Of a DNA stretch of 64,000 nucleotides, positions 9,239 to 29,900 are shown one piece after another. Position numbers and translations under genes: made by a program. Every line of letters starts with the position of its first letter. Position 1 is the stretch's first letter. Below the pieces are notes generated by a model. That model did no database searches and had not been told where the DNA came from. It worked only from the letters and a program-made list of their open reading frames with translations. This DNA is from Minisyncoccota bacterium (GTDB taxonomy: Bacteria > Patescibacteriota > Minisyncoccia > Phycocordibacterales > UBA918), in contig JAIPIB010000002.1 of the NCBI GenBank assembly GCA_021734905.1, positions 38,167 through 102,166 of the forward strand, read 5' to 3'.

Positions 9239-9724
9239 GTGTACATGGATACAGCTGGAATTGTGACACTTCTCCAAGAGTCAATTTTTATGATTGTTGT
9301 CTTTTCAACTTTTCTTATATATGGCATGGCGAAGGGAAGATACGCACTCATCAATGTACTTTTTGCACTTTACCTCGCACTCCTCATATCAATCAAGTTT
9401 CCATACTATAATCAAATTGTGCAGGGGACAGGGGACAGTAGTGCCGTTGCAAAGATTCTTTTATTTATTAGTTTTTTCCTCGTAGGAATTATTCTATTTA
9501 GACGACACATACCTGGCGACGACTATGAAGCAGCCTTTCATAAAATCGGCAAGAAAGTTCTTCTTGCAGTAATGGCTACTGTGCTTGTTATGATTTTTAG
9601 TTTCCATGCTCTACCGGTAACAGAAATAATCACCCCCGGCACACCAATTCAGGCACTATTTGCCTCACAAGAAAACTTCTTCTGGTGGCTCATCCTCCCA
9701 CTTGCTGTTCTTTTCTTCGTGTAA
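9239..9724 (+). CDS. CvpA-like small integral membrane protein
   Basis: 161 aa with 4 predicted TM helices. Size and topology resemble the CvpA (colicin V production) family. Assignment by resemblance only. Confidence 0.4.
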   Translation: MYMDTAGIVTLLQESIFMIVVFSTFLIYGMAKGRYALINVLFALYLALLISIKFPYYNQIVQGTGDSSAVAKILLFISFFLVGIILFRRHIPGDDYEAAFHKIGKKVLLAVMATVLVMIFSFHALPVTEIITPGTPIQALFASQENFFWWLILPLAVLFFV

Positions 9725-9731
9725 AACCTAT

Positions 9732-10457
9732 ATGCAGATCAAGCCAATTAAAACATCAATTCACTGTATCAGTGATGATTTATTTTCCTTCATAGTTTCA
9801 CATGTTAAAAGACTTGATGATGGGGAAATACTCGTCGTAACATCAAAAATAGTAGCTCTCTCACAAGGAAATATTATTTCGCACGACATGTATACCGAAT
9901 ATCTTAAAAATGTTTCAATGCAGTCTATTCAAACTCCGTGGGCAACGTTCACTCACACAAATGAGGGTTGGTGCATCAATGCGGGCATTGATGAATCGAA
10001 TGCACAAGATAGCCTCATCACACTTCCAAAAAAACCATTTGAATGCGCGCATGCTCTCCTTAAAAAACTCAAGAGACATTATGGTCTAAAAAACCTTGGT
10101 CTTATTATTACAGACACACGAAGTGTACCACTTCGTGTTGGTACTATTGGACGAACCATTGGCTGTGCAGGATTTCATCCCTTCAAAAGTTATATTGGCA
10201 AGAAAGACCTTTTCGGAAGAAAAAGCCGAGTAACGATAAGTAATGTTGCTGATGCCCTTGCGGCAGGTGCCGTTCTTGTCATGGGCGAAGGTAATGAACA
10301 AACACCTCTCGCTGTCATACAAAATGCTCCAATAACCTTCACTCAATCAAAATTAAAAAATGAGGAAACACGTCTTTTCCTTCTCCCCAAAGATGACATC
10401 TTTACATATCTATACAAAAACGCTTCGGTAGAGCCTCACAAACATCCCAAGAAGTAA
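9732..10457 (+). CDS. CofE-like protein (F420-0:gamma-glutamyl ligase family, pfam01996-like)
   Basis: The ATG at 9732 is in frame with track ORF 9660. Motifs ILVVTSKIVALSQGN, GWCINAGIDESN and LIITDTRSVPLRVGTIGRTIGCAG match the CofE/FbiB N-domain signatures (ilvVtSKivSkaeGr, GfvcANAGvDeSN, viisDtfGRpwR.GqvdvAIG). Confidence 0.72.
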   Translation: MQIKPIKTSIHCISDDLFSFIVSHVKRLDDGEILVVTSKIVALSQGNIISHDMYTEYLKNVSMQSIQTPWATFTHTNEGWCINAGIDESNAQDSLITLPKKPFECAHALLKKLKRHYGLKNLGLIITDTRSVPLRVGTIGRTIGCAGFHPFKSYIGKKDLFGRKSRVTISNVADALAAGAVLVMGEGNEQTPLAVIQNAPITFTQSKLKNEETRLFLLPKDDIFTYLYKNASVEPHKHPKK

Positions 10458-10925: not shown

Positions 10926-11936
10926 TTAGACGTCGAGACTCTTAAGTACTTTCGAGTAAAGCTGTTCGACTATCTTCTGCTGGTCAATTCCATTGCGTGA
11001 GTAGTGGTCGAGTCCTGGTGCGGCGTTTATTTCGAGTACCCAATACTGCTTTGACTCTTCAGTGATATCACCACAGATCATGAGGTCAACTCCACAAAGA
11101 CGGAGGCCCATGTCCCGAGTCAGTGACACCGCGAGTGCTCGATACGTAGGATGCACGACACTTGTGACATCGACAGCCTCACCACCGGAAGAGAGATTTG
11201 CATTGTCGAGGAGGAACACCTTCCTGCCCTTCGCGACAACACTCTCGAACGTACAACCATCTCGCGCGAGCTTTTCCTTAATGCGTGGATCATCGAGCAC
11301 AATTTGCGTATCACGCCCCATTCGCGAAAATGAACGTTGCTTCCTGAGGAGAAGCTCGCGTACAGTCCTCTTTCCATCACCTACAACAGAAAGCGGGATA
11401 CGCTCGTACGCTGAAATGACGTCTCCGTCGAGCACCACGATGCGGTAGTCTTTGCCAAAGACAGGGTTCTGCACAAGCACGATGCGATCGTTCTTGAAGA
11501 CTGCGCGTACCGCACGGTAAAACGCACGTTTTGTGTGCACGAGTGCCACATCAGTCCCTTGGCTTCCACTGTTTGGCTTCACAATGACCGGAAGACCAAG
11601 CTTCTGGGCATGAGCATACGCCTCATCAATGCCACGCCGCCTCGCATGAATTGCCTTACACCAGTCATCACGGAAGAACGTCTTGCTTCCCGGAACAACT
11701 GGATAGCCCAGTTTGACCATAAAAAAGTTCGCATAATCCTTGTCTTTCGCAACATCCGATGCGCCTACTGGATTGAGGTCAAGCGTGTTGTACCTGAAAT
11801 ACGTCCGCCTTCCACTCTTAAAGGTGATCTGCCCTACGATACGCCACTCTGGTTCGAGGAGTACCTTCGCCCCAATCTTTGGGGCAATTTTTTGGAGCAT
11901 TTCCCCAAGTACAAGTGATTCGCTTTTCTTTTTCAT
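10926..11936 (-). CDS. stand-alone ATP-grasp ligase homologous to the cyanophycin-synthetase (CphA) ATP-grasp domain / RimK-like
   Basis: LGLPVIVKPNSGSQGTDVALV, YRIVVLDGDVISAYERIPLSVVGDGKRTVRELL, DNANLSSGGEAVDVTSVVHP and VLEINAAPGL align block-for-block with the CphA G-domain (PVVIKPLDGNHGRGITINV, HRVLVVNGKLVAVAERIPAHVTGDG, ATANLSTGGIAIDRTDDIHP, IVEVNAAPG). No Mur-ligase M-domain is present. Confidence 0.75.
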   Translation of the reverse strand: MKKKSESLVLGEMLQKIAPKIGAKVLLEPEWRIVGQITFKSGRRTYFRYNTLDLNPVGASDVAKDKDYANFFMVKLGYPVVPGSKTFFRDDWCKAIHARRRGIDEAYAHAQKLGLPVIVKPNSGSQGTDVALVHTKRAFYRAVRAVFKNDRIVLVQNPVFGKDYRIVVLDGDVISAYERIPLSVVGDGKRTVRELLLRKQRSFSRMGRDTQIVLDDPRIKEKLARDGCTFESVVAKGRKVFLLDNANLSSGGEAVDVTSVVHPTYRALAVSLTRDMGLRLCGVDLMICGDITEESKQYWVLEINAAPGLDHYSRNGIDQQKIVEQLYSKVLKSLDV

Positions 11937-12082: not shown

Positions 12083-12801
12083 ATGGCAAAAAACAACTTC
12101 AAAAGACTTAGTTATCTACCAGACAAAATCTGGTGCTCTTGAACTGCGTGGGGATTTTGAGAAGGAAACAATTTGGGCCAGCCTCGATCAAATCGCAGGA
12201 GTTTTTGGTCGGAATAAGTCAGTAATTTCAAGACACCTTAAAAACATTTTTTTGGAGGGCAAATTAGATCGCAACTCAGTTGTTGCAAAAAATGCAACAA
12301 CTGCCAGTGATGGGAAAACTTATCAAGGAGTTTGCTTCAACGTGGGTTTCCCTTGATGTATATGATAAGGAAGAGTTTGAACTGAAAGGAATCACAAAGA
12401 AGAAAGTATCACTCGTAAGCAGTGACCTTTTGTCTGCAATCGGTGATTTGAGAAAGGAATTAGTGAAGAAGAAGGAAGCAACTGAGATGTTTGCATCTGA
12501 ACGTAGGGAAGGGAATATTGAAGGTATTGTCGGAAATGTCATGCAGTCATTCGGAGGTAAGGCAATGTATCCCACAGTTGAAGAGAAGGCCGCTCACCTG
12601 CTCTACTTCATGGTAAAGAACCACCCATTCACCGATGGCAACAAGCGTTCAGGAGCATTTGCATTCATCTGGTTTCTCAGGAAGACCGGTGCGAAGTGAA
12701 GTAGACAAATCAATCCTCCTGCTCTCACACTCCTCATTGCAGAAAGCGACCCATCAAAGAAAGATCAAATGGTCGCCCTCGTAACCCAAATGCTACGGTA
12801 G
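12083..12801 (+). pseudogene. RhuM-family (Fic/Doc-like) gene, disrupted by two frameshifts and an in-frame TGA
   Basis: The C-terminal frame (ASERREGNIEGIVGNVMQSFGGKAMYPTVEEKAAHLLYFMVKNHPFTDGNKRSGAFAFIWFL) matches the RhuM/Doc motif HPFxDGNKR. The N-terminal RhuM block (LVIYQTKSGALELRGDFEKETIWASLDQIAGVFGRNKSVISRHLKNIF) is in another frame. The ATG at 12083 is out of frame across an A6 run (12088-12093). TGA at 12697-12699 interrupts the frame, and homology continues (ALTLLIAESDPSKKDQMVALVTQMLR) to a stop at 12801. Confidence 0.6.
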
Positions 12802-12865: not shown

Positions 12866-13483
12866 ATGAAAACTGAATTTAATAAGAAAATACTACTTAA
12901 GTACGTTCCCATATACGATGCAAATTTGTCTCTTGCATCAGGTGTCACGCTATCAGACGCTGAAATTTCTGAAGGATATGAATACTGCACACTCTTTGAA
13001 AAAGAGTGGAATTCTGTTGCTCAAGTTCTTGAATATTACACCTCATTAGGATTCAATCTCCCTAATCAGACTCCTGCGTATCTAACTCATCCGAGGGGAA
13101 CCTTTACTCCATTTTCTGACCCCCTTACTCTTCATATAAAGGAGGACAAGGATGATGTTTTGGCGACACTGATTCATGAGTATTGCCATGTACTTTTTCT
13201 ATATCACAAGAACGATATTTTGTCAGACAAAATCTGGAACGCGGTACAAAAAGCATTCCCAACCGAAGATTTTGGTACTCAAGATCACATCACGATAAAC
13301 AAGCTCGCCGAAGGCGGTTTGTATTATTTATGGGGAAGGGAGAAGACAGATGCGATTCTCTCGAAGGAGAGAGCCATGCCTGGTCTCGAGCGAGCGTGGA
13401 AAATACTAGATTCAGCTGAATTAAGGAATACCAACCCTGTTGAAGCAATACTTGAGCTTTGCGCCCAACAGTCTGGAAAATAA
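12866..13483 (+). CDS. hypothetical HExxH-motif protein (putative SprT-like metallohydrolase)
   Basis: 205 aa, no TM. Single HEYCH motif (LIHEYCHVLF). Family not firmly recognised. Confidence 0.45.
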   Translation: MKTEFNKKILLKYVPIYDANLSLASGVTLSDAEISEGYEYCTLFEKEWNSVAQVLEYYTSLGFNLPNQTPAYLTHPRGTFTPFSDPLTLHIKEDKDDVLATLIHEYCHVLFLYHKNDILSDKIWNAVQKAFPTEDFGTQDHITINKLAEGGLYYLWGREKTDAILSKERAMPGLERAWKILDSAELRNTNPVEAILELCAQQSGK

Positions 13484-13503
13484 TTCAGCAACAATCTGAA
13501 TAC

Positions 13504-14079
13504 ATGAAAACTTTATACATTACATACACGCATGGTGATGAGCATCCACCATATGAGATACCAAACGCGCTTGTTGCAAATCCTTTAGCAAGGGAACGAA
13601 ATTTGCGATACATTGAAACTGACCTGAACAGAAGTTTTGGTGTAAAGACACCGGTCTCATATGAAGAAAAAAGAGCTGTTGAATTGGAGGAGATGCTCAA
13701 CGACTATGATCTTGTTGTCGATATTCACAGAACAACAGCACAAACAAAATTTTGTGGCATTGTCACAAAATCTGATGATGCAGTGTATGTACTACCATAT
13801 GGTGTAAGTGCTGTAGTTCTCGTTGAGAATATTCAAAATTCACTTATTTCAAGAGCAAAGCATGGTATAGCATTAGAGTACCCATATGCATATTCGTTGC
13901 ATACTGGTAGCGTTCCACTGTATCGAGTTAAAAAGTTTGTTACTGCAGAACCACACTGGATCGATTTTGAAGAAACCGAACAGGGAATACCATACTTAGT
14001 AAACGAAAAGGCATACCATGGAAAATGTTTTTTACTTGAAAAAATCCATCCAAACATCAACTCAAATTTAAGGGAATAA
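13504..14079 (+). CDS. AstE/AspA (succinylglutamate desuccinylase/aspartoacylase) family zinc hydrolase-like protein
   Basis: The in-frame ATG at 13504 (MKTLYITYTHGDEH) gives the N-terminal metal-binding HG(D/N)E motif. DLNRSFG matches the DLNR motif of the AstE/AspA-M14 fold. Confidence 0.5.
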   Translation: MKTLYITYTHGDEHPPYEIPNALVANPLARERNLRYIETDLNRSFGVKTPVSYEEKRAVELEEMLNDYDLVVDIHRTTAQTKFCGIVTKSDDAVYVLPYGVSAVVLVENIQNSLISRAKHGIALEYPYAYSLHTGSVPLYRVKKFVTAEPHWIDFEETEQGIPYLVNEKAYHGKCFLLEKIHPNINSNLRE

Positions 14080-14356: not shown

Positions 14357-15280
14357 ATGAACCAAAGTTGGTTTCTGATGGCACTGGTGCCACCGTTACT
14401 GTACGCAGTAACGAATCATATCGACAGAAACCTACTTGGAATTTATTTCAAGGAAGGTGGCGTCGGTACCCTCGTAATAGTCTCATCACTTCTGTCGGTC
14501 ATCCCAATTCCAATTTTCTTATGGGTAGATTCGTCAGTACTGAGTGTTGGCATAGAAAATATGCCAGCATTAGCATTTGCCGGCCTGCTTAATGTAGGTC
14601 TCATCTGGTTTTACCTGAAAGCAATGCAGGATGAGGAGCCAACAGTCGTGATCATCTTCTATTCACTTGTACCAGTACTGGGGCTTGTGTTTGGATATTT
14701 TATTCTCGATGAAACGATTAGCCATATGCAACTCATAGCAATGGCAATAATCATCGTCGGAACAGCACTTGTCTCCTTCGAAATCGGTGAAGCAAATAAC
14801 TTGACGCTGAGAGTCAGTACCCTTGTGAATATGGTTATTGCTTGCACCTGTTGGGCGCTTGAGATGGTGGTGCTCAAAAAAGTTGCACTTGAAGAAAATA
14901 TGTGGAGATCATTATTCTGGGAACATTCCATGATGGTGGTTGTGGGAATCCTCATCTTCATTTTTGTGCCAAAGTACCGTTATCATTTCATGATTGCACT
15001 ACGAAGTAATTCAAAGGCGATCCTATCCCTCAACGCTACCAATGAGGTTCTCTACATCATCGGAAACGTTGTCGGAGCATTTGCATCAATGATGGCGCCA
15101 GTTGCCCTTGTACTCTTGGCACAGCCATTCCAATCGATTTTTGTGTTTGGGATTGCTGTATTTCTAACCAGCTATTTTCCCCGCTTTTCCGCAGAAAAGA
15201 CGGAATTCAAGCACATGCTACAAAAGTTGCTTGCAATCTGTGTGACTGGTATGGGGACATACTTACTCCTAACGTCATAG
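14357..15280 (+). CDS. DMT-superfamily (EamA-like) permease, paralog A
   Basis: 307 aa, 10 TM helices, duplicated EamA architecture. About 50% identical to the ORF at 16352. SD aaaggag before the ATG. Promoter-like TATAAT at about 14312. Confidence 0.8.
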   Translation: MNQSWFLMALVPPLLYAVTNHIDRNLLGIYFKEGGVGTLVIVSSLLSVIPIPIFLWVDSSVLSVGIENMPALAFAGLLNVGLIWFYLKAMQDEEPTVVIIFYSLVPVLGLVFGYFILDETISHMQLIAMAIIIVGTALVSFEIGEANNLTLRVSTLVNMVIACTCWALEMVVLKKVALEENMWRSLFWEHSMMVVVGILIFIFVPKYRYHFMIALRSNSKAILSLNATNEVLYIIGNVVGAFASMMAPVALVLLAQPFQSIFVFGIAVFLTSYFPRFSAEKTEFKHMLQKLLAICVTGMGTYLLLTS

Positions 15281-15310
15281 TGCGGAGTCGGATAGCTCAT
15301 CTTAAACTCA

Positions 15311-15348
15311 AATCGCGTAGCCATAAGCTACGCGATTTTCTTTTTTTT
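15311..15348 (+). terminator. rho-independent terminator after DMT paralog A
   Basis: aatcgcgtagc cataa gctacgcgatt stem followed by ttcttttttttt. Confidence 0.7.
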
Positions 15349-15436
15349 AGTCCTTTGAGTTATCCACTGTCTCTTTAAATGCTATTGTCAAACAGCATTT
15401 TGTATTGTACAATAATTAAATTCTAATAATATTTCT

Positions 15437-16345
15437 GTGATTCCTAAATTTCCAAAATTTAAAAGCATATCTGTTGAGGACAGTAATGAAATACGTCGCT
15501 TTTCAAACCGCTTTCAACCGTATTCTTTTTTTAACTTCTCTAGTCTATGGGCATGGAACACTGAGAAAAAGTGTAAAATATCAAAGCTTAATGGTAATTT
15601 GGTGATGTTTTACACTGATTTTATAACATCGAAACCTTTCGTTACTTTTTTAGGTACGAATAAGGCTAAAGAGACGGCGGCGGAGCTCATCGAGTTTATA
15701 AAGAAGAGCAAAACTGGAGCAGCACTTCGATTCATAACAGAGGAAACAAAAACTTGTTTATTACATTCAGATTTTCATATTAAAGAAGACAGAGATAATT
15801 TTGACTATATTTTTTCAACATCAAAACTCGCTCTTTCAGAAGGTCCTGATTTTAAACAAAAACGTCAACACGCAAACAGATTTTTACGTGAAAATCCAGA
15901 CGCTCGTCTAGTACACGAAGATATGCATGATTTAGCTGTACGAAAGAAGCTTACGGGTGTAATTCGTCAATGGGAGAAAAACAAAATAGATACTAAAAAA
16001 CAATGCAATCTCAAACATGAGCAAGCGGCAATAAATCGTCTACTAAAGAATGATACCAATCGTAAACTCATTCTTTCATGTGTATATGTAGATGAAACGA
16101 TGGTTGGTTTTAGTATCGATGAGATACTTTTAAGTGGTTATGCTATGGCACACTTCATCAAAGCAGATTACTCATACAGGGGTGTTAGCGAGTATATTAA
16201 TGAAAAAGTCGCTGCTCATTTAATTACCCACGGTATTGAACTATGGAATTGGCAGCAAGATTTAAATTTTGACGGTCTTCGTAAACTTAAAATGAGTTAC
16301 CGTCCTGTGCACTTCTTAAAGACATACACCATCTCAAAAAAATAA
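15437..16345 (+). CDS. DUF2156 / MprF C-terminal-domain-like protein (putative aminoacyl-tRNA-dependent aminoacyltransferase, GNAT-pair fold)
   Basis: 302 aa, soluble. Motifs FFNFSSLWAWN, RDNFDYIF...G.DFKQKRQHANRF and C-terminal NFDGLRKLKMSYRPVHF correspond to conserved blocks of the lysyl-PG synthase domain and stand-alone DUF2156 proteins (NLYaWR, FDYIY...KKR...NRF, GLRRFKEKFKP). Recalled from memory, not searched. Confidence 0.62.
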   Translation: MIPKFPKFKSISVEDSNEIRRFSNRFQPYSFFNFSSLWAWNTEKKCKISKLNGNLVMFYTDFITSKPFVTFLGTNKAKETAAELIEFIKKSKTGAALRFITEETKTCLLHSDFHIKEDRDNFDYIFSTSKLALSEGPDFKQKRQHANRFLRENPDARLVHEDMHDLAVRKKLTGVIRQWEKNKIDTKKQCNLKHEQAAINRLLKNDTNRKLILSCVYVDETMVGFSIDEILLSGYAMAHFIKADYSYRGVSEYINEKVAAHLITHGIELWNWQQDLNFDGLRKLKMSYRPVHFLKTYTISKK

Positions 16346-16351
16346 TATTCT

Positions 16352-17272
16352 ATGAGTTGGTTCTTTTTCACACTTATCGGCCCATTTCTGTATGCGCTCA
16401 CTAACCATATAGATAAATTATTACTTGAAAAATATTTCAAGAAGAGTGGAGTAGGTACGCTTATGCTATTTTCGACACTTGTGTCGATATGCGTATTGCC
16501 ATTAATCTATTATTTCGATCAAACTGTATTTGGCGTTGGTATTAAAAATATTGCAGTATTGGCAACTGTTGCGGCTTTGAATGTTCTTGTTCTATATTTT
16601 TACCTTCTTGCACTTAAGGATGAGGAAGCTTCTATTGTGATTGTATTTTACCAACTTGTACCTGTTTTTGCATACATACTAGGATATTTCATTCTCAGTG
16701 AAACGCTAACGCAAATACAACTTATCGCAATGGCAATTGTTATTTTTGGTACAACAATTATTTCTTTTGAGATAGACGTCGAAAACAACTTCAAGCTAAG
16801 AAAAAATACTATTTTTCTTATGACCGCAGCATCTTTTTGTTGGGCATTGGGATCAGTAATTTTTAAGGCCGTTGCGCTTGAGGAAAATGTTATGCGGTCT
16901 CTTTTCTGGGAACATTTTGTTTTGGCAATAATCGGAGTTGGTATCTTTTTCTTTGCCAAGTCTTCAAGGAAACATTTCATTAAAGAAATTGAAATTAATT
17001 CCTCTTCAATACTTTCATTAAACTTCCTTAATGAATCGCTATATATACTTGGTAATTCTGTTTTTGCATACGCATTTCTTCTCGCTCCGATATCACTTAT
17101 TCTTCTAACAAATTCATTTCAGCCGATCTTCGTTTTCATTATTGGTATAATCCTAACAATTTTCTTTCCAAAAATTTCAGCTGAAAAGATTCAAGCAAAG
17201 CACCTTTGGCAAAAAGTTCTTGCCATTGCAATAACTGGAGCGGGAACATACCTCCTGTTGATTTCGTCGTAG
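16352..17272 (+). CDS. DMT-superfamily (EamA-like) permease, paralog B
   Basis: 306 aa, 10 TM helices. Co-linear with and clearly homologous to the ORF at 14357. Confidence 0.8.
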   Translation: MSWFFFTLIGPFLYALTNHIDKLLLEKYFKKSGVGTLMLFSTLVSICVLPLIYYFDQTVFGVGIKNIAVLATVAALNVLVLYFYLLALKDEEASIVIVFYQLVPVFAYILGYFILSETLTQIQLIAMAIVIFGTTIISFEIDVENNFKLRKNTIFLMTAASFCWALGSVIFKAVALEENVMRSLFWEHFVLAIIGVGIFFFAKSSRKHFIKEIEINSSSILSLNFLNESLYILGNSVFAYAFLLAPISLILLTNSFQPIFVFIIGIILTIFFPKISAEKIQAKHLWQKVLAIAITGAGTYLLLISS

Positions 17273-17364
17273 CTTAAAAACGGAATTTAACCTATTAATT
17301 AAAGAGTATGGCCCATCTGTGTATATATAAAAAATAATCAATGTCGGAATGATATAATAAGCTG

Positions 17365-17523
17365 ATGGATATGAAGTCAAGGACATTGTTTCTTTTTATG
17401 TTTGTTCTGTGTATTTTCTCTATTGCTGCTTTATATTACAAAGCTATCATTCAACAAGATTTTGACATTGTGGAGGTGTACGAAGATTCTGAGGAAAATG
17501 ACACTGAAATTGTCTCAGAATAA
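17365..17523 (+). CDS. small secreted/membrane peptide (52 aa): hydrophobic N-terminus, acidic C-terminus
   Basis: Hand translation gives MDMKSRTLFLFMFVLCIFSIAALYYKAIIQQDFDIVEVYEDSEENDTEIVSE. Not in the track. TATAAT about 10 nt upstream. Speculative. Confidence 0.3.
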   Translation: MDMKSRTLFLFMFVLCIFSIAALYYKAIIQQDFDIVEVYEDSEENDTEIVSE

Positions 17524-17534
17524 ATTTCTAATCA

Positions 17535-18077
17535 ATGAAAAAAATATCACCAAAAGCAATTAATGAGGTCCGAATCGAAATGAAACCCTCTAAAATGTTA
17601 AAGGGTGAAGTTGGCGTCTTTGCGACACGCAATCTTAAAAAGAATTCTATCGTGGCGGAAGCAAGTCAATTCTTATGTGAAAGGTTTATTCCGTGGGAAA
17701 AATATAAAGAGCTTGATCCAATTACTCAAAGGAAGGTTATGGATTATTGTTCTGGAGATGTTAAAGGTTTTTACGCTCCTCCAGATTTAAACTACTTATC
17801 TATAGCATGGCATTTAAACCACAGTTGTGAACCGAATGTTGGATTTGATGCGGGCTATAATTTTGTAGCAATGAGGAATATTAAGAAGGGAGAAGAATTG
17901 TTTTGGGATTATTGCTATGACGAATCAAATCCTGATTTCAAGATGAAATGTTCATGTGGTTCAAAAAAATGCAGAGAAGTAATTACTGGTGAAGACTGGA
18001 GAAAACTCATAAAAAATAAAAAGGCTTGGCAGTATCTATCAACTGATATTAAAAAGTTAGCAAAAAATGTTAAATAA
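17535..18077 (+). CDS. SET-domain protein (putative protein lysine methyltransferase)
   Basis: NHSCEPN and ELFWDY SET motifs, followed by post-SET cysteines (CSCGSKKCR). Confidence 0.75.
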   Translation: MKKISPKAINEVRIEMKPSKMLKGEVGVFATRNLKKNSIVAEASQFLCERFIPWEKYKELDPITQRKVMDYCSGDVKGFYAPPDLNYLSIAWHLNHSCEPNVGFDAGYNFVAMRNIKKGEELFWDYCYDESNPDFKMKCSCGSKKCREVITGEDWRKLIKNKKAWQYLSTDIKKLAKNVK

Positions 18078-18087
18078 TTCTTAGCTT

Positions 18088-19800
18088 ATGGATACCTCAA
18101 ATTTAATCATATGCACTGACGCAAGTCCTGATTTTGTGGGTATTTTTGACTTAAGCATTGCTCCTGCCATGCTTTACTATTCCTATATTCCAATTGTTTT
18201 TATATCACTACTGCTAGGTGTGTTTGTTTTGATACAAAATCGATTTTCATTAATAAGCAAAATCCTTTTTCTAATTACACTCCTTTTCTCAATATTTATT
18301 GCGAATGAACTTCTGCAATGGGTAGCGGTTCCTGCTGGAATTATGTACTTTGCATGGTCTCTTTCTCTATTACTACATTTCTTTATTGTTTTACTGACAT
18401 TTTACTTTGTTTATTTGTTCATAAATAAAAATGACTTTTCCTTTTCTCAAAAAGTTTTATTTATGCTAGTTAGTCTTCCAGCAATACTATTACTCCCAAC
18501 AAATTTGAATGTTCCAGCCTTTGACGTTGACTGGTGTGGTGCAATAACTGGACCACTTTGGTATTACCTCTACGCATTTGAAATTGCCACAGCAACGTTC
18601 TTATTGTCATGGGGCATAAAGTTGATCAGAAAATACTACCGCCTTAAAGACAGAGCCTTACTGCCATCAATCTATCTTCTTTTTGGTGCATCGTTCTTCT
18701 TGTTTGTTTTCTTTGGTTCATACTTTGTTAGTGAAATAGCAGACCTTTATGAAATTAATCTATATGAATTTAATTTCATCGGCCCATCTGGAATGCTTAT
18801 CTTTATTGGAGTGTTCTCTTTCATGATTGTAAAATTTAAAACATTTAATATTAAGCTCCTCGGGGCACAAGCGCTTGTGGTTGCACTGTGGTTCCTTGTG
18901 GATTCACTGCTCTTTGTGGCGCAGTCTACAACAACGCGCACTGTTGCTGGCGTTACTCTTCTTATCACAACAATCGCTGGTTACTTCCTTGTGCGAAGCG
19001 TTAAGAAAGAAGTGCAACAAAGGGAAGAACTTGAGATCCTTACCGACCAACTCGCAAAGGCGAACGCACGCCTGAAGCTCTTAGATAAGATGAAATCAGA
19101 ATTTGTCTCTATTGCATCGCACCAACTTCGAAGTCCACTTACATCTATTCGTGGATACGCTTCTATGCTTGCGGAAGGTTCTTACGGCAGACTTCCGGTA
19201 AAAGCGCAGGAGGCTGCTGCAAATATTGCTGACTCGAGTAAATACATGGCAATGTCTATTGAGGATTATCTTAATGTGTCTCGTATTGAAGCCGGGAACA
19301 TGAAGTATGAAATGAGCGACTTTAATCTCAAGGATGCTGCTGAAAAGATTGTCGACGAGATGCGACCGGTTGCTATGAAGAAGGGCCTCGTGATGGTTTT
19401 TCGTTCTGACTGTAACGGAAGTAATCAGATTAATGCAGATATTGGTAAAACACGCCAAGTCATTATGAATCTCCTCGACAACTCAATGAAATATACTCCA
19501 AAGGGAACCATTACAGTTGTTGCTCATGATGATATTAAGAAAAAAAAGATGTACGTTACTATTAAGGATACCGGCGTCGGTATGAGTAAAGAAACACAAG
19601 AAGAAGTCTTTGATAAGTTTGTCCGCGCAAAGAACGCCAACAACATCAATGTCACAGGAACAGGTCTCGGCCTCTTTGTTGCAAAGAAAATGGTTACTGA
19701 GATGAAGGGAAGAGTATGGGCCGAGTCAGAAGGAGAGGGGACTGGGTCTACATTCCACATAGAATTTTCACTACTGCCTGGGAAACCCTCAGTGAGATAA
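18088..19800 (+). CDS. sensor histidine kinase with multi-TM (about 7 TM) N-terminal domain
   Basis: N-terminal 250 aa with multiple TM helices, a coiled coil, then H-box SHQLRSPLTSIRGYASML, N-box DNSMKYT and G-boxes DTGVGM / GTGLGL. No response regulator nearby. Confidence 0.85.
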   Translation: MDTSNLIICTDASPDFVGIFDLSIAPAMLYYSYIPIVFISLLLGVFVLIQNRFSLISKILFLITLLFSIFIANELLQWVAVPAGIMYFAWSLSLLLHFFIVLLTFYFVYLFINKNDFSFSQKVLFMLVSLPAILLLPTNLNVPAFDVDWCGAITGPLWYYLYAFEIATATFLLSWGIKLIRKYYRLKDRALLPSIYLLFGASFFLFVFFGSYFVSEIADLYEINLYEFNFIGPSGMLIFIGVFSFMIVKFKTFNIKLLGAQALVVALWFLVDSLLFVAQSTTTRTVAGVTLLITTIAGYFLVRSVKKEVQQREELEILTDQLAKANARLKLLDKMKSEFVSIASHQLRSPLTSIRGYASMLAEGSYGRLPVKAQEAAANIADSSKYMAMSIEDYLNVSRIEAGNMKYEMSDFNLKDAAEKIVDEMRPVAMKKGLVMVFRSDCNGSNQINADIGKTRQVIMNLLDNSMKYTPKGTITVVAHDDIKKKKMYVTIKDTGVGMSKETQEEVFDKFVRAKNANNINVTGTGLGLFVAKKMVTEMKGRVWAESEGEGTGSTFHIEFSLLPGKPSVR

Positions 19801-19941
19801 AAGAGAAGGGTAATCACTCTTGAAAAAAGATACTTAGTAGTTTTTTAAAGAAAAATGGACACCATAGCTAATATGTGCTATAATTTATTTAGTTAAATTT
19901 CATGTTTTTTCATTCCCAAAATTGGGAGGAAGGAGTCTTAG

Positions 19942-20676
19942 GTGAAAACCCTAATAGTTCTATTTGTAACGACAATGTCTCAAATGGCGTTTGCATACGA
20001 TTCGCCATGGGAGAAGACTCTTGCCTATCCACCAACACTGACCGGTGAAGAACTTGCCCTGGCAGAAACCGAACTCTTGCCAGAAAATGTCGAGAAAACT
20101 AAAATTGCTCTTGCGAGTGACTATGGTCAAAAATTCGATGACACATTGAACGAGGCTTCGCCTTATGTCGAGATCGTCATGAAGACACGCCGTGGCAAGG
20201 ATCCGGCAAATAGCTTGAATGACGTCAGTGCCTACGTAGAATTCCCATTGACGGCAACTCTATCGCTCTGGGTAACTGGAACAGATGACGAGACCTTCAA
20301 GGGAACCTACGTCGGCCTAGCCAGAAAATTTGGCAATTGGCAGGTTGCACTTGGTGGAGGAAGCGTCGTATATGGCGATACTCGTCACAATGTCATCAAT
20401 CCGTGGATCTTGTATTCTACAGATAGTTACGAGGCGTATTTACACGCTGAGTACTACGGAAAGGAGTCGGACAATCGGTGGTGGTATAAAGCCTTTGCTG
20501 ACAAGAAGTTTGGCAACACTAGCTTTGGCCTCTACGGCGAAGCCGGCGTTGGGATAGGTCCTCGGCTCTCATGGCAGGTTACCAAAAACTTGAAATTTTG
20601 GGTTATGGTGCCAGTCGCACTTCAGCCGAATGAAGGGAAAATCAAATTCATGGCGGCAGCTGTCGTCATGTTCTAG
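19942..20676 (+). CDS. secreted protein with OMP-like C-terminal beta-signal (GTG start)
   Basis: Strong SD gggaggaaggag before GTG. Signal peptide MKTLIVLFVTTMSQMAFA. Aromatic-rich. C-terminus ...KFMAAAVVMF ends in Phe with alternating hydrophobics. GC higher than surroundings. Confidence 0.5.
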   Translation: MKTLIVLFVTTMSQMAFAYDSPWEKTLAYPPTLTGEELALAETELLPENVEKTKIALASDYGQKFDDTLNEASPYVEIVMKTRRGKDPANSLNDVSAYVEFPLTATLSLWVTGTDDETFKGTYVGLARKFGNWQVALGGGSVVYGDTRHNVINPWILYSTDSYEAYLHAEYYGKESDNRWWYKAFADKKFGNTSFGLYGEAGVGIGPRLSWQVTKNLKFWVMVPVALQPNEGKIKFMAAAVVMF

Positions 20677-20779: not shown

Positions 20780-21718
20780 ATGAAAAAACGACTTTTTACA
20801 GGACTACAACCATCAGGAGCGCTCCATATTGGAAACTACTTTGGGGCACTGAAGCCTTTTAAAGATATAGCGGGGGACTACGATAGTTTTCTCATGATTG
20901 CAGACTACCATTCACTTACCACAATGCGAGACGCAACGACACTGAGAAGCAACATCATTGATGTAGTCAAAGACTATATAGCTATTGGAGTTGAACCAGA
21001 TGAAGTCACTATATTTAAACAATCAGACGTACCAGAACATACAGAACTTGCATGGATATTTGAATGCTTAGTGACCGTACCTTTTCTTTCTCAGGCTCAT
21101 GCGTACAAAGACAAGGTTGCAAAAGGATTGGAAGCAAACGCAGGACTCTTCAATTATCCAATGCTTATGGCTGCAGATATCCTTCTCTATGATGCAGATG
21201 TTGTGCCAGTTGGAGAGGACCAAAGACAGCACGTTGAATACGCAAGGGAAGCTGCAACAAAATTCAATAATGCATATGGGGAGACATTTGTCCCACCTCA
21301 AGAAATGGTCTTGAAAGGAGTCGGCATCGTAGCAGGAACTGATGGTCAGAAGATGAGTAAGAGCTACAAAAACACCATTCCACTTTTTGGAACGAAAGAC
21401 GAAATTTCTAGAGCAGTCATGAGTGTCGTAACTGATTCAAGTGGAGATCGTCCAGAAAACGTCTATTCGATTCATCGTCTGTTTAGAACAGAATCTGAAC
21501 TTGAAGGACTTTATGCAGAGCATGCTGGGAAATATAAAGATCTTAAAGAAGCACTTATAGAAGATATTGAAACTCTCGTTGCACCAATGCGTGAGAAACG
21601 ATCAGAAATTACCGATGATGATGTTCGTACAATTCTAAAAAACGGAAGTGAGAAAGCTCAAGCTCAAGCTCAAAAAAAGATTACAGAAATTCGAGACAGG
21701 ATAGGAGTTTCTATATAA
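20780..21718 (+). CDS. trpS: tryptophanyl-tRNA synthetase
   Basis: Class I HIGH region (GLQPSGALHIGNYFGAL) and KMSKS (GQKMSKSYKN). 312 aa. Confidence 0.9.
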   Translation: MKKRLFTGLQPSGALHIGNYFGALKPFKDIAGDYDSFLMIADYHSLTTMRDATTLRSNIIDVVKDYIAIGVEPDEVTIFKQSDVPEHTELAWIFECLVTVPFLSQAHAYKDKVAKGLEANAGLFNYPMLMAADILLYDADVVPVGEDQRQHVEYAREAATKFNNAYGETFVPPQEMVLKGVGIVAGTDGQKMSKSYKNTIPLFGTKDEISRAVMSVVTDSSGDRPENVYSIHRLFRTESELEGLYAEHAGKYKDLKEALIEDIETLVAPMREKRSEITDDDVRTILKNGSEKAQAQAQKKITEIRDRIGVSI

Positions 21719-26929: not shown

Positions 26930-29900
26930 ATGTATCTACGGCGACAGCATTTTTTAGTATGTGCGCTTCTGAGTTGCATTCTTGTCTTTGCTCCGGTCTC
27001 TCACACACAGGCATTCTCACTCGATGACTCATCTCTCTGGAGAGGTACTGCGACACTCTTTGCCGGTGTGAGTTCTTTCACCTGTGGCAGTTTCTTCTCG
27101 TACATACTCAATCCACTTGGTCTCTGTGCAACGCCCAACTTTGACGGGGAACCACTCGCACAGAACGATACCCTCCATGACGCAATGGAGGGAATTGTCC
27201 CCGATGAAACACCAACGACCATACCCATTGCACCAACGTACATCACCAATACATACAACACCAATCCAACCACTATCGTACGAGACACAGTGAGAGAGGT
27301 GGTCTACCATACCGAGAGTAATACACCACCTGATCTCTCTCAGTTTGTGACCCGTGACTTCGTGAATAAACAGTCCAATAGAATTTATGATGTTCAGGGA
27401 GATGCACAGAGTACCAATGCTGCATCATTCACCACCAATCTCCTCACGGTATCAGGGGACAGCACCGTATCAGGACTCCTTACTGTTGACGGTGCACTCT
27501 CATCACTCGCATACACCTCTGCACCATACCTCACTGCCACAGATGCTGCTGCCACCTCTACCTTTGCGGGTAGTGTGACGGTTGATGGGCGTGTGGGGAT
27601 TGGGACGACGAGTCCAAAACAAAAATTACATATTGTTGGTAACGCATATACAGAAACACTCATTGAATCTTTGACAGCTGATTCTGCACTGGCACTAAAA
27701 TATGCATCTGGAAACACTGGTGGCATGTTCTTTTACTCAGGTGCCACTGCTGCTGGGTCACTATATGGAGGCAATGATAACAGTCTCAACTTACAAACAT
27801 ACACAGCAAGCCCATTAAAGTTTCTTACAAGCGGAACTGAACGCATGCGTATTTCTGATACTGGAAATGTTGGGATAGGGATAGCTTCACCAAATACTAG
27901 ATTCCAAATTGTAAATGGGTCAGTTTCCGGAAATGACGCTTTTGCCCAGTTCGGAAGTACAGTTGGAGGAACAGGTGAACTAGGCTTGCAGTTTGGACGA
28001 AGTGGAGCTACGTCTGGTTCATTAATAATTCAAGGAGTAAAAGAAGGTACTGGAGCAAATAATTTGTCCCTTCAACCAAGTGGAGGAAACATCGGTATCG
28101 GCACCACCTCTCCAACCTCTAAACTTACCGTCAATGGTGACATACGCATAGAGACAGGCTCAGGAGGACAACTCATCTTTGCAGACGGAAGCACTATGTC
28201 CTCAGCAGCACTTGGTTCAGCAGCAGCACTCTCAAACATCACAGACGCCATCATCACCGGAGACTCAGACACCAACAGTTCAGGTAATATACTATTCAAA
28301 ACCGGCTCCAATGACCGTATGACCATACTAAACAATGGAAATGTGGGAATTGGGACAGTGGGTCCGGGAACACCTCTCCAAGTAAATCACGGAGGAGGAG
28401 CTGATGGTACGAGGCAAAATGTCCTGACAGTTTCTACTGCCGGTTCTGTTACCTATGGTGGGTATATCGGCAATCGTGCTGTATCTGCAAATACGCATCA
28501 AGGCATGTTTATTGAGGGAGGGGGATCTTTAACCCTTGGAGCAAAGAGCTATAACATTGATTTTATAACGGGTGCAGGCATTACTGCTAGTGGCGATACA
28601 AATTTGAGAATGCGAATAGATTCTTCAGGCAACGTCGGCATCGGCACGACAGAGCCGGGCCTGCGTCTGGAAACAAAAGCTGCGGCCGCTGGACTACCAG
28701 CCACTTCTGGCACATCGCAAACTGGAATTATGCGCTTGAGTCAGGGGATTGGCACTGGTGTGGTTGATTTTGGTTTTGGCGGAACGGCTGGATATGGTTG
28801 GATACAGGCTGTTGATAGTGGTAATTTAGCAACCAACTATGGATTATTGTTGAATCCAAACGGCGGCAACGTCGGTATCGGGACGACGAATCCAACACAG
28901 GAACTGACAGTATATGGTGCAGGAAACAATTCTACTGAAATTAATATAATAGAGCCGGATGCAGTCTCCGAATCAATAATTAATTTTGGCGATTCCATGT
29001 CAGGGACGGCACGATATGAAGGTAGAATCTCTTATAACCATACGACTAATGCTTTAAATCTCAGCACAAATCATTTGGTCAGCACGCCCGAACTGACATT
29101 AAAGAATGGAAACGTCGGTATTGGCGTCGCGTCACCGCAGGCAATGCTTGATATTGTTGGTAACGATACCATTCTTAAAGTACGCGACACAAGAACAACA
29201 GGAGGTAACGCGACTTTACAGCTACAGGCAGAAGGTCAGCTTGCCCAGCTTAAATTCTATTACGGAGACAGATTCGCTATCGATAATGGTGGAGGAACGG
29301 AATGGCTTACAATAAAGCAGAACGGAAACATTGGCATCGGCACCACTTCACCACAGGCAAAACTAAGCGTAAAGGGAAGTGGCACCGGTTCAGGCTTCCT
29401 CGCACAGTTCACCGACAGCGCAGATAGTCCCAAGTTCACGATTTTGGATAATGGAAATGTTGGGATTGGTACGGCGATCCCAGGGTCAAAATTAACTGTG
29501 CAAGGAGGAAGTTCGGGAGCTGTTGATTTTGCTGTTATGCATTCTACTGGGAATGCGGGATTGTATTTCTCAACTCTTGCAAGCGGTTCTGGTAGATTAG
29601 TTTTTGCTAATTCCGCAAGTACAATAGTTAACCAAATCGGTATTTCAGATAATGAATACACATACTTCAATAATGGTAACGTAGGTATAGGAACATCGAC
29701 GCCAAGCGCAAAGTTGGATGTGGTCGAAGGAATTATTAGAATTTCGGGCACAAGTGATGCATTCGACCAAACTTTATCTATTCAGAATAATGTGAACAAG
29801 GTTCTTAAGCTTACTGTGGGTTCTAACGGTGGAGGGACGGCATGGTACACACAGCCAAACACAGGAACTCTCGGCGTGGATACTGGGATGGATTTACGTT

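What the first reader, a model, noticed from the sequence alone, without database searches (positions are those of the whole stretch)
17535..18077. SET-domain protein lysine methyltransferase in a reduced bacterial genome
The 180-aa protein has NHSCEPN, ELFWDY and post-SET CxCGSKKC motifs, i.e. a complete SET catalytic core. Bacterial SET proteins are sporadic and usually associated with host-chromatin manipulation (Legionella RomA, Chlamydia NUE) or methylation of nucleoid proteins. Here it sits between the DMT/DUF2156 module and an orphan 7TM histidine kinase, inside what looks like an accessory island.
Basis: partly seen in the sequence, partly recalled or inferred. Interest (0 to 1): 0.5.

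Follow-up and report, generated by a model that had tools for sequence, protein, structure and literature searches.

The report
SET methyltransferase inside a kinase operon
A small, intact SET-domain methyltransferase in a Candidate Phyla Radiation bacterium is the middle gene of a conserved three-gene operon with a tiny membrane protein and a multi-pass sensor histidine kinase, which suggests, but does not prove, that lysine methylation is tied to membrane signalling in these bacteria.

Summary
ORF 17535..18077 (+, 180 aa) is a complete SET/post-SET methyltransferase: Pfam SET scores 47.7 bits, the NHSCEPN, ELFWDY and CxCx4C motifs are all present, the AlphaFold model has pLDDT 94, and the best structural matches are MLL1 and SET1. 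The host is a Candidatus Pacebacteria (CPR) MAG, where GenBank already calls the protein "SET domain-containing protein".

- There is no signal peptide and no effector-type extra domain.
- Codon usage (GC3) is native, and the gene co-diverges with the neighbouring TrpRS. It is therefore not a recent island and probably not a host-chromatin effector.
- The "orphan" kinase starts only 10 nt downstream.

The unit small protein–SET–multi-pass kinase recurs in at least 13 non-redundant CPR loci. It has a conserved extended −10 box 6 nt before the first ATG, SETs from three different subclades, two gene orders and sometimes unrelated flanks. Relatives of this SET are also coupled or fused to DUF2156, an ATP-grasp enzyme, an unknown ~280-aa protein, or transmembrane domains.

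The substrate is unknown. My best guess is a lysine on a membrane-associated partner. A BurB-like small-molecule or lipid substrate is the main rival.

The parts
17350..17358 (+). Putative extended -10 promoter element TGaTATAAT, ending 6 nt before the ATG of the small ORF. This predicts a leaderless or near-leaderless transcript.
   Evidence: Read from the sequence. A TGnTA(T/C)AAT box at the same 6-nt distance is present in L001, L034, L039 and L041, a TATAAT without the TG in L044, and nearby boxes occur in L035 and L007. The generic promoter scan did not report it because there is no -35 match, so this is an inference.
17365..17523 (+). First gene of the operon: a 52-aa micro-protein with a short basic N-terminus (MDMKSR), one TM helix (about residues 7-23), a conserved YK-x-I-I-x-Q-D-F-D/E-I-V segment and an acidic tail (pI 4.05).
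   Evidence: ORF. Homologues sit immediately next to SET and/or the kinase in L001, L002, L007, L009, L034, L035, L039, L040, L041, L043, L044, L100, L101 and L102. GenBank lists it as hypothetical protein MCF7815707.1. No Pfam family matches.
17535..18077 (+). The finding itself: a 180-aa cytoplasmic SET/post-SET SAM-dependent methyltransferase with a family-specific C-terminal ITGxDW-plus-helices extension and Trp124 at the Phe/Tyr-switch position.
18088..19800 (+). Third gene: a 570-aa sensor histidine kinase with about 8-9 N-terminal TM segments (residues ~33-302), a juxtamembrane RSVKKE motif, an H-box SHQLRSPL, and a HATPase_c domain.
   Evidence: Pfam HisKA 57 bits and HATPase_c 86 bits. 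The N-terminal 320 aa match no Pfam family, but some homologues carry PF16927 HisKA_7TM. The gene is adjacent to SET (-4 to +10 nt) in 10 close-clade loci and in L100, L102, L104 and L105. The H-box is conserved.
19856..19884 (+). Strong sigma-70-like promoter match (TGGACA-17-TATAAT, TG-extended) after the kinase stop codon. It marks the 3' boundary of the operon and the start of the next transcription unit.
   Evidence: 11 of 12 matches. No terminator-like site lies on the + strand between 17365 and 19800.
14357..17272 (+). Looser upstream guild EamA - DUF2156 (LPG_synthase_C, 15437-16345) - EamA. It is probably a separate transcription unit but is a recurrent neighbour of the cassette.
   Evidence: Pfam. 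DUF2156 lies upstream of the small ORF in L001, L002, L009 and L044, and EamA in many loci. A DUF2156-SET fusion protein, P0211, exists.

Best explanation
The gene encodes a catalytically intact, cytoplasmic SET/post-SET SAM-dependent methyltransferase of a Candidatus Pacebacteria (CPR) bacterium. It is the middle gene of a self-contained operon: conserved extended -10 box, then a leaderless 52-aa single-pass membrane protein, then SET, then a multi-pass sensor histidine kinase.

Shown:
- the SET fold and the SAM-binding, catalytic and zinc residues;
- the absence of an export signal;
- the native codon usage;
- the recurrence of the three-gene unit across divergent CPR lineages.

Inferred:
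- The enzyme works at the inner face of the membrane as the soluble enzymatic component of this signalling cassette.
- It transfers methyl groups from SAM to the epsilon-amine of a lysine on a cassette-associated target.
- The target is most likely a protein or peptide: the micro-protein before or at membrane insertion, the kinase's cytoplasmic part, or a client delivered by the neighbouring ligase-type enzymes.
- Methylation thereby tunes or forms part of the signal handled by the kinase.
- Trp124 at the Phe/Tyr-switch position suggests a narrow active site and low methylation multiplicity (weak inference).
For: Identity as a SET enzyme:
- Pfam SET 47.7 bits.
- Invariant N95, H96, C98, N101, D125, C139, C141, C146, and Y126 at >=90%.
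- AlphaFold pLDDT 94.4.
- The family profile matches MLL1 over its full length at 80 bits.

Cytoplasmic location: no hydrophobic segment.

Operon structure:
- The gaps are 11 nt and 10 nt.
- No internal terminator, and a strong promoter follows the kinase.
- A conserved TGnTAtAAT box lies 6 nt before the first ATG in several loci.

Conservation of the cassette:
- SET-kinase spacing is -4 to +10 nt in 10 non-redundant close-clade loci, found by unbiased neighbour clustering of 82 SET loci.
- Starting from the kinase side, divergent kinases (37-43% sensor identity) again have SET and the micro-protein.
- HK-linked SETs belong to three subclades that are 30-40% identical to each other.
- L102 has the order SET-small-kinase with unrelated flanks, and L105 also lies outside the DnaK...TrpRS block.

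Vertical history:
- SET/kinase/TrpRS identities co-vary: 90/88/75, 63/56/71, 57/51/62, 47/32/54.
- GC3 is native.

Membrane theme: relatives are fused to 3-4 TM domains (P0198, P0201, P0205) or to the TM-containing DUF4760 (P0180).
Against: - No biochemical data exist and the substrate is unknown.
- No lysine is invariant in the kinase's cytoplasmic region or in the micro-protein among SET-linked loci; K and R interchange.
- The micro-protein's conserved segment and acidic tail are predicted to be extracytoplasmic, out of reach of a cytoplasmic enzyme after insertion.
- Close-clade SETs with the same conserved insert residues occur in higher-GC non-CPR contigs (L005, L008) without the kinase or micro-protein. 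There they sit next to an ATP-grasp gene. A substrate unrelated to the kinase therefore remains plausible.
- Some kinase orthologues lack SET (L101, L103).
- Much of the synteny lies within one DnaK...TrpRS block of related genomes.
Confidence: 0.45

Rival explanations
1. Small-molecule or lipid methyltransferase. The SET enzyme methylates a non-protein amine (or thioether) made by the neighbouring ligase-type enzymes: DUF2156 aminoacyl-tRNA transferase here, a GARS-like ATP-grasp or the unknown ~280-aa protein elsewhere. An example product would be the lysine head-group of a lysyl-lipid or an amino-acid conjugate. EamA transporters would export or flip the product, and the kinase would sense it or its effect.
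For: - SET is flanked upstream by DUF2156, ATP-grasp or unk280 in about 19 of about 25 loci of the close and sister clades. These include non-CPR loci that lack the kinase, with overlapping genes in L008, L011 and L054.
- Fusions exist: P0211 is DUF2156+SET and P0174 is unk280+SET.
- EamA recurs in the neighbourhood.
- Membrane-anchored SET fusions exist.
Against: - The family profile aligns with protein-lysine SETs over its full length but with BurB only over the C-terminal half.
- No BurI/BurD/BurE-type genes are nearby.
- In the close clade the upstream enzyme varies and appears to be a separate transcription unit from the small-SET-kinase operon.
- The SET half of the DUF2156 fusion P0211 lacks the catalytic DY tyrosine (ELTADL).
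- L102 has the cassette with none of these three enzymes detected in the ~2 kb held upstream of SET.
Confidence: 0.22
2. General endogenous protein-lysine methyltransferase acting on, for example, a nucleoid protein (HU) or translation factors. Its place in the kinase operon would then reflect only co-expression or inherited synteny, not a direct functional link.
For: - Precedents exist: cpnSET methylates Hc1 and Go1-SET methylates MC1-alpha (PMC3980110).
- A 45%-identical relative (P0041) sits beside two HU genes.
- No conserved lysine was found in the cassette proteins.
- Close relatives exist without the kinase (L005, L008).
Against: - There is no HU gene in the 64-kb window, and HU adjacency is seen only in L037/L038 among 82 loci.
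- The SET-kinase link persists across three SET subclades, two gene orders and unrelated flanks, with 4-nt overlaps. Passive synteny does not easily explain this.
Confidence: 0.2
3. Secreted effector that methylates host histones or histone-like proteins, in the manner of Legionella RomA/LegAS4 or Chlamydia NUE.
For: - CPR bacteria are commonly host-dependent (general knowledge).
- The best sequence and structure matches are histone methyltransferases.
- BaSET is reported to be secreted without a recognisable signal.
Against: - No signal peptide or TM segment.
- No accessory effector domains.
- Tight translational coupling to a membrane kinase and micro-protein.
- Relatives occur in free-living-type Nitrososphaerota archaea and in proteobacterial contigs.
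Confidence: 0.06

Closest known systems
MLL/SET1 (KMT2)-type SET + post-SET catalytic domains
   Different: It is a 180-aa standalone protein with no WDR5/RbBP5/ASH2L-type partners or chromatin-reader domains. Trp replaces Tyr at the Phe/Tyr-switch position (ELFWDY against ELTYDY). It has an extra conserved ITGxDW-plus-helical C-terminal extension. It is bacterial, encoded in a kinase operon, and has no histone substrate in the cell.
BurB (Burkholderia thailandensis Met S-methyltransferase, PDB 9l4t)
   Different: The match covers only the C-terminal half (residues 88-153). There are no burI/burD/burE-like pathway genes nearby. BurB belongs to a secondary-metabolite cluster, not a kinase operon.
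Prokaryotic SETs acting on nucleoid proteins (Chlamydophila cpnSET-Hc1; Methanosarcina Go1-SET-MC1-alpha) and secreted SET effectors (RomA/LegAS4, NUE, BaSET)
   Same: All are prokaryotic SET-domain lysine methyltransferases. An endogenous-target precedent exists.
CheR-chemoreceptor-CheA (analogy only)
   Same: A SAM-dependent methyltransferase is encoded with, and acts on, a membrane sensory complex that controls a histidine kinase.
   Different: CheR is a class I Rossmann methyltransferase that O-methylates glutamates. There is no sequence or fold relationship. No methylesterase or receptor gene is present here. This is purely a functional analogy and was not tested.
Agr-type peptide signalling (AgrD precursor, AgrB, polytopic kinase AgrC) (analogy only)
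   Same: A ~45-50-aa precursor-like protein with a hydrophobic N-terminus and an acidic C-terminal tail is encoded beside a polytopic histidine kinase and a modifying enzyme, with an exporter nearby.
   Different: There is no AgrB-like peptidase and no response regulator in the operon. No sequence similarity was tested or claimed. This rests on general knowledge and is speculative.

Membership tests
SET domain methyltransferase superfamily (PF00856) | Significant match to the SET profile above the curated threshold | tested here: met
   47.7 bits against a cutoff of 22.4, E 2.3e-12, residues 26-126 covering profile positions 2-104 of 105.
SET domain methyltransferase superfamily (PF00856) | SAM-binding/pseudoknot motif NHxCxPN and the C-terminal ELxF/YDY motif with the catalytic Tyr | tested here: met
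   N95-H96-S97-C98-E99-P100-N101 and E121-L-F-W124-D125-Y126. N95, H96, C98, N101 and D125 are invariant, and Y126 is >=90% conserved in 46 sequences. The variation is Trp at the switch position.
SET domain methyltransferase superfamily (PF00856) | SET beta-clip/pseudoknot fold | tested here: met
SET domain methyltransferase superfamily (PF00856) | Post-SET CxCx4C zinc cluster (KMT2/SET2/SUV39-type) | tested here: met
   C139, C141 and C146 are invariant, together with C98 of NHSC. They align with the MLL1 post-SET CNCGAKKC. Metal binding itself is not testable here.
SET domain methyltransferase superfamily (PF00856) | SAM-dependent methyl transfer to a protein lysine | not testable with these tools
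   This needs an enzyme assay. BurB shows that the fold alone does not fix the substrate class.
Secreted bacterial SET effectors (RomA/LegAS4, NUE, BaSET) | Export from the bacterium (secretion signal or effector architecture such as ankyrin repeats) | tested here: not met
   No hydrophobic N-terminal or TM segment. SET is the only Pfam domain. Type III/IV signals cannot be scored with these tools.
Secreted bacterial SET effectors (RomA/LegAS4, NUE, BaSET) | Methylation of host histones | not testable with these tools
   There is no assay and the host is unknown.
BurB/MSMT methionine S-methyltransferases | Full-length similarity to BurB | tested here: not met
BurB/MSMT methionine S-methyltransferases | Clustering with SMM decarboxylase/aminotransferase/dehydrogenase (burI/D/E) genes | tested here: not met
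   No such Pfam families were found among the neighbours scanned or in homologous loci.
Nucleoid-protein-directed prokaryotic SETs (cpnSET, Go1-SET) | Association with, or methylation of, an endogenous DNA-binding protein | tested here: inconclusive
   No HU gene is in the window, and HU is adjacent only in L037/L038, the 45%-identity clade.
CPR 'micro-protein + SET + multi-pass histidine kinase' cassette (defined here) | SET gene within 0-15 nt of a homologous TM micro-protein gene and a homologous multi-TM HisKA/HATPase_c kinase, all on one strand | tested here: met
   The window gaps are 11 and 10 nt. The same unit is in L001, L002, L007, L009, L034, L035, L039, L040, L041 and L100, and in a different order in L102.

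The most novel reading that the evidence does not exclude
SET-catalysed lysine methylation is an integral step of a previously undescribed CPR signalling cassette. The enzyme would modify one of three things: the co-encoded micro-protein (acting as a co-sensor, or as an Agr-like pheromone precursor matured together with the neighbouring DUF2156, ATP-grasp or unknown-280 enzymes and exported by EamA); the kinase itself; or a lysyl-lipid or amino-acid conjugate made by DUF2156. In each case methylation would set what the multi-pass kinase senses or how it signals. This would be the first link between a SET enzyme and bacterial two-component or peptide signalling.
Probability: 0.25. Interest if true: 0.75.

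Novelty: new variant of a known kind. Interest (0 to 1): 0.5.

Why it matters
SET enzymes are the main histone-lysine methyltransferases of eukaryotes. Their bacterial relatives are known mainly as secreted effectors or nucleoid-protein modifiers. Here a minimal, intact SET/post-SET enzyme in an ultra-small CPR bacterium is locked into an operon with a sensor kinase and a membrane micro-protein. SETs from three subclades fill the same slot, and relatives are fused to membrane domains and to ligase-type enzymes.

If the coupling is functional, it points to lysine (or amine) methylation as part of membrane signalling or envelope or peptide modification in a lineage with very few regulatory systems. 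It also gives a concrete, cheap test set: one 180-aa enzyme, one 52-aa peptide and one kinase. If the coupling is only co-expression, the gene is an ordinary, already-annotated SET homologue.

Tried and rejected
- **BurB orthology.** Rejected: the match covers only the C-terminal half and there are no pathway genes.
- **HU or another nucleoid protein as an adjacent substrate.** There is no HU in the window, and HU is adjacent only in L037/L038.
- **Response regulator partner.** phmmer with CheY and PhoB found none among the window's ORFs of 60 aa or longer.
- **Anti-phage defence role.** No PADLOC hit for SET, the micro-protein or DUF2156. The kinase gave only a generic ATPase hit.
- **Recent horizontal island.** Rejected for SET, the small ORF, the kinase and DUF2156 on the basis of GC3 and co-divergence.
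- **Unknown-280 as a remote DUF2156 homologue.** Rejected: hhalign probability 0.1%.
- **A conserved target lysine in the kinase or micro-protein.** None is invariant.
- **Pfam families for the micro-protein, the kinase sensor region, unknown-280 and the TM-170 protein.** None found.
- **tRNA and Rfam scans of the window.** Nothing found.
- **Genome scan with the broad alignment A1.** It failed for lack of a conserved stretch, so it was repeated with A2.
- **Literature.** Nothing on SET in Patescibacteria or on SET-kinase neighbourhoods. The Iyer et al. 2009 amidoligase paper was not held.
- **Residue-level alignment to BurB.** Not obtained, because BurB ranked below the five alignments printed.
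- **Complex prediction (SET + micro-protein + kinase).** Not possible with the single-chain tool.

Full report
**1. Observation**

- Pfam SET (PF00856) matches at 47.7 bits (cutoff 22.4, E 2.3e-12) over residues 26-126. NCBIfam has no specific model for it.
- The motifs are N95-H96-S97-C98-E99-P100-N101, E121-L-F-W124-D125-Y126 and C139-x-C141-x4-C146.
- In a 46-member family alignment N95, H96, C98, N101, D125, C139, C141, C146 and R147 are invariant, and Y126 is at least 90% conserved.
- AlphaFold2 with that alignment gives pLDDT 94.4 and pTM 0.87.
- Foldseek against the PDB returns only SET/post-SET lysine methyltransferases at the top: MLL1, MLL4, ASH1L, NSD and SETD2, at E~1e-8.

**2. Organism**

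The neighbouring TrpRS (20780..21718) is 100% identical to a protein of a "Candidatus Pacebacteria bacterium" MAG on a 181,883-bp contig. Relatives at 73-75% identity are in Kaiserbacteria genomes of about 1 Mb.

The exact SET, small-ORF and kinase proteins are in GenBank as MCF7815706.1 ("SET domain-containing protein"), MCF7815707.1 ("hypothetical protein") and MCF7815705.1 ("sensor histidine kinase"). "Reduced bacterial genome" is therefore right, and the SET annotation as such is not new.

**3.

The operon structure:
- A 52-aa ORF at 17365..17523 (MDMKSRTLFLFMFVLCIFSIAALYYKAIIQQDFDIVEVYEDSEENDTEIVSE) ends 11 nt before the SET start. It has one TM helix and an acidic tail.
- The kinase starts 10 nt after the SET stop.
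- There is no terminator-like site inside 17365-19800.
- A strong promoter match (19856-19884) follows the kinase.
- An extended -10 box, TGaTATAAT (17350-17358), ends 6 nt before the first ATG. The same arrangement (TGnTA(T/C)AAT + 6 nt + ATG) is found in L001, L034, L039 and L041, a TATAAT without the TG in L044, and nearby boxes are in L035 and L007. This suggests a leaderless operon mRNA. It is an inference.

**4. Conservation of the cassette**

I fetched 100+ loci that encode SET relatives or kinase relatives.
- Unbiased clustering of neighbours over 82 non-redundant SET loci shows the kinase directly downstream (-4 to +10 nt) in 10 close-clade loci, and the micro-protein in 10 or more.
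- The micro-protein alignment shows a conserved pattern: M-D-x-K-S-K-I-L, a TM helix, then F/Y-Y-K/R-x-φ-φ-x-Q/K-D/N-F-E/D-I-φ.
- Starting from the kinase's sensor region, L100 (43% identity) has EamA-small-SET-kinase, but its SET comes from a different subclade (30% identical to the window's).
- L102 (37% identity) has a third SET type in the order SET-small-kinase, with unrelated flanks.
- L101 has small-kinase only. L103 has an expanded small-ORF homologue, an unknown 268-aa protein, and the kinase.
- The second SET subclade (P0078/P0088) is also directly upstream of such a kinase.
- An NJ tree places HK-linked SETs in three clades, interleaved with non-linked SETs.

Within the window's clade, SET/kinase/TrpRS identities co-vary: 90/88/75, 63/56/71, 58/55/63, 57/51/62, 55/36/55 and 47/32/54.

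GC3 of SET (0.287), the small ORF (0.34), the kinase (0.371) and DUF2156 (0.287) lies within the window's 0.335 +/- 0.059. The module is therefore native and vertically inherited. The local GC dip comes from amino-acid composition (codon positions 1 and 2).

**5. Wider guild**

Upstream of the cassette there is almost always one of three things, often together with an EamA transporter:
- a DUF2156/LPG_synthase_C protein (window, L001, L002, L009, L044);
- a GARS-like ATP-grasp (L007, L100, L101);
- an uncharacterised ~280-aa protein (L034, L035, L039, L041, L104, L105).

In higher-GC, non-CPR contigs (GC 54-61%), close or sister-clade SETs lack the kinase and micro-protein. They lie next to or overlap the ATP-grasp (L005, L008) or the unknown-280 gene (L011, L054).

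An exhaustive search found 28 clusters at E<=1e-30, 511 at 1e-10 and 3600 at 1e-3 among 1.84 billion representatives. It also revealed fusions:
- unknown-280+SET (P0174);
- DUF2156+SET (P0211, whose SET lacks the catalytic Tyr);
- DUF4760+SET (P0180);
- FRG+SET (P0183, P0194);
- 3-4 TM + SET (P0198, P0201, P0205).

Unknown-280 is not detectably related to DUF2156.

**6. Mechanism**

What is shown is an intact SAM-dependent SET enzyme, cytoplasmic (no hydrophobic segment), encoded in a conserved operon with a membrane micro-protein and a multi-pass kinase. That kinase has no response regulator within the 64-kb window.

What I infer is that the enzyme acts at the membrane's inner face on a lysine of a cassette-associated target, and so tunes or forms part of the signal.

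Evidence against a specific intra-cassette lysine:
- No lysine is invariant in the kinase cytoplasmic part or the micro-protein.
- Close relatives with the same conserved insert residues work without the kinase (L005, L008).

A generic nucleoid-protein methylase is possible by precedent (cpnSET-Hc1, Go1-SET-MC1-alpha). It has support only from one divergent clade that sits next to HU.

A secreted host-chromatin effector is unlikely, given the absence of a signal or effector domains and the operon context.

**7. Comparison and novelty**

The protein is a member of the SET superfamily, closest to KMT2/SET1-type SET+post-SET cores. It has three distinctive features:
- Trp at the Phe/Tyr-switch position;
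- a conserved ITGxDW-helical C-terminal extension;
- the kinase/micro-protein operon.

I found no report of SET proteins in Patescibacteria or of SET-histidine-kinase neighbourhoods in the held literature. I therefore rate it a new variant of a known kind. The enzyme family is ordinary and already annotated. The conserved cassette and guild are new and testable, but they are supported only by comparative genomics.

**8. Verdict**
- Observation: confirmed.
- Interpretation: partly supported.
- Interest: 0.5.
- Most novel reading not excluded: methylation as an integral step of a CPR-specific signalling, peptide or lipid cassette, with probability about 0.25.

Noticed in passing
window 19942-20676 (+): A 244-aa protein with an N-terminal signal-like sequence and a C-terminal ...VVMF, and no Pfam or NCBIfam hit. 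Its GC3 is 0.51, about 3 sd above the window mean. It has its own strong promoter at 19856-19884. Homologues are in L001 and, next to an EamA gene, in the 54%-GC 'Gammaproteobacteria' MAG contig L005. It could be a horizontally acquired, possibly beta-barrel-like envelope protein in a CPR genome.
   Followed up: partly
window 14357-15280 (+) vs 16352-17272 (+): Two paralogous EamA transporters flank the DUF2156 gene. The first has GC3 0.471, an outlier, and the second 0.30. The EamA of the proteobacterial contig L005 scores slightly better against the first. This suggests different origins for the two copies.
   Followed up: partly
L034:4994-5824, L011:5141-5998, L103:2193-2999, P0174 residues 10-268: An uncharacterised ~255-337-aa protein family with no Pfam match recurs immediately upstream of SET or of the kinase, in both CPR and non-CPR contigs. 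It is fused to SET in P0174. It is absent from this window.
   Followed up: partly
window 10926-11936 (-) and 9660-10457 (+): A RimK-like ATP-grasp ligase (GC3 0.537, the strongest outlier in the window) lies next to a protein of the F420-0:gamma-glutamyl ligase (CofE) family. This is another amino-acid-ligating pair about 6 kb upstream of the SET operon. Any relation to the SET guild is unknown.
   Followed up: no
window 26930-32389 (+): A 1819-aa protein whose only Pfam hit is Peptidase_S74 (the intramolecular chaperone of endosialidase/tail-fibre type) at residues 1580-1638. It could be a giant surface or fibre-like protein.
   Followed up: no
window 12280-12699 (+) and 13459-14079 (+): A short Fic/DOC-domain ORF (139 aa, TTG start) and a 206-aa ORF that matches only part of the AstE/AspA catalytic domain. 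Both may be degraded genes in the variable stretch between DnaJ and the EamA/DUF2156 module.
   Followed up: no
L005 (GC 54%), L008 (GC 57%), L011 (GC 61%): Close or sister-clade SET genes (46-61% identical) occur on high-GC contigs binned as Gammaproteobacteria, Burkholderiales and Verrucomicrobia. There they lie next to or overlap an ATP-grasp or unknown-280 gene, without the kinase. This implies transfer of the SET (and in L005 of the EamA and 244-aa genes) between CPR and other phyla.
   Followed up: partly
L037:4196-6743, L038: In a 45%-identical SET clade the gene overlaps an upstream DUF4760 membrane-protein gene. It is followed by two HU genes and a nucleotidyltransferase/HEPN toxin-antitoxin pair. 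This is a quite different context from the window's, and DUF4760-SET fusions exist (P0180).
   Followed up: partly
window 1-64000: No tRNA, tmRNA or Rfam family at gathering threshold was found anywhere in the 64 kb.
   Followed up: yes
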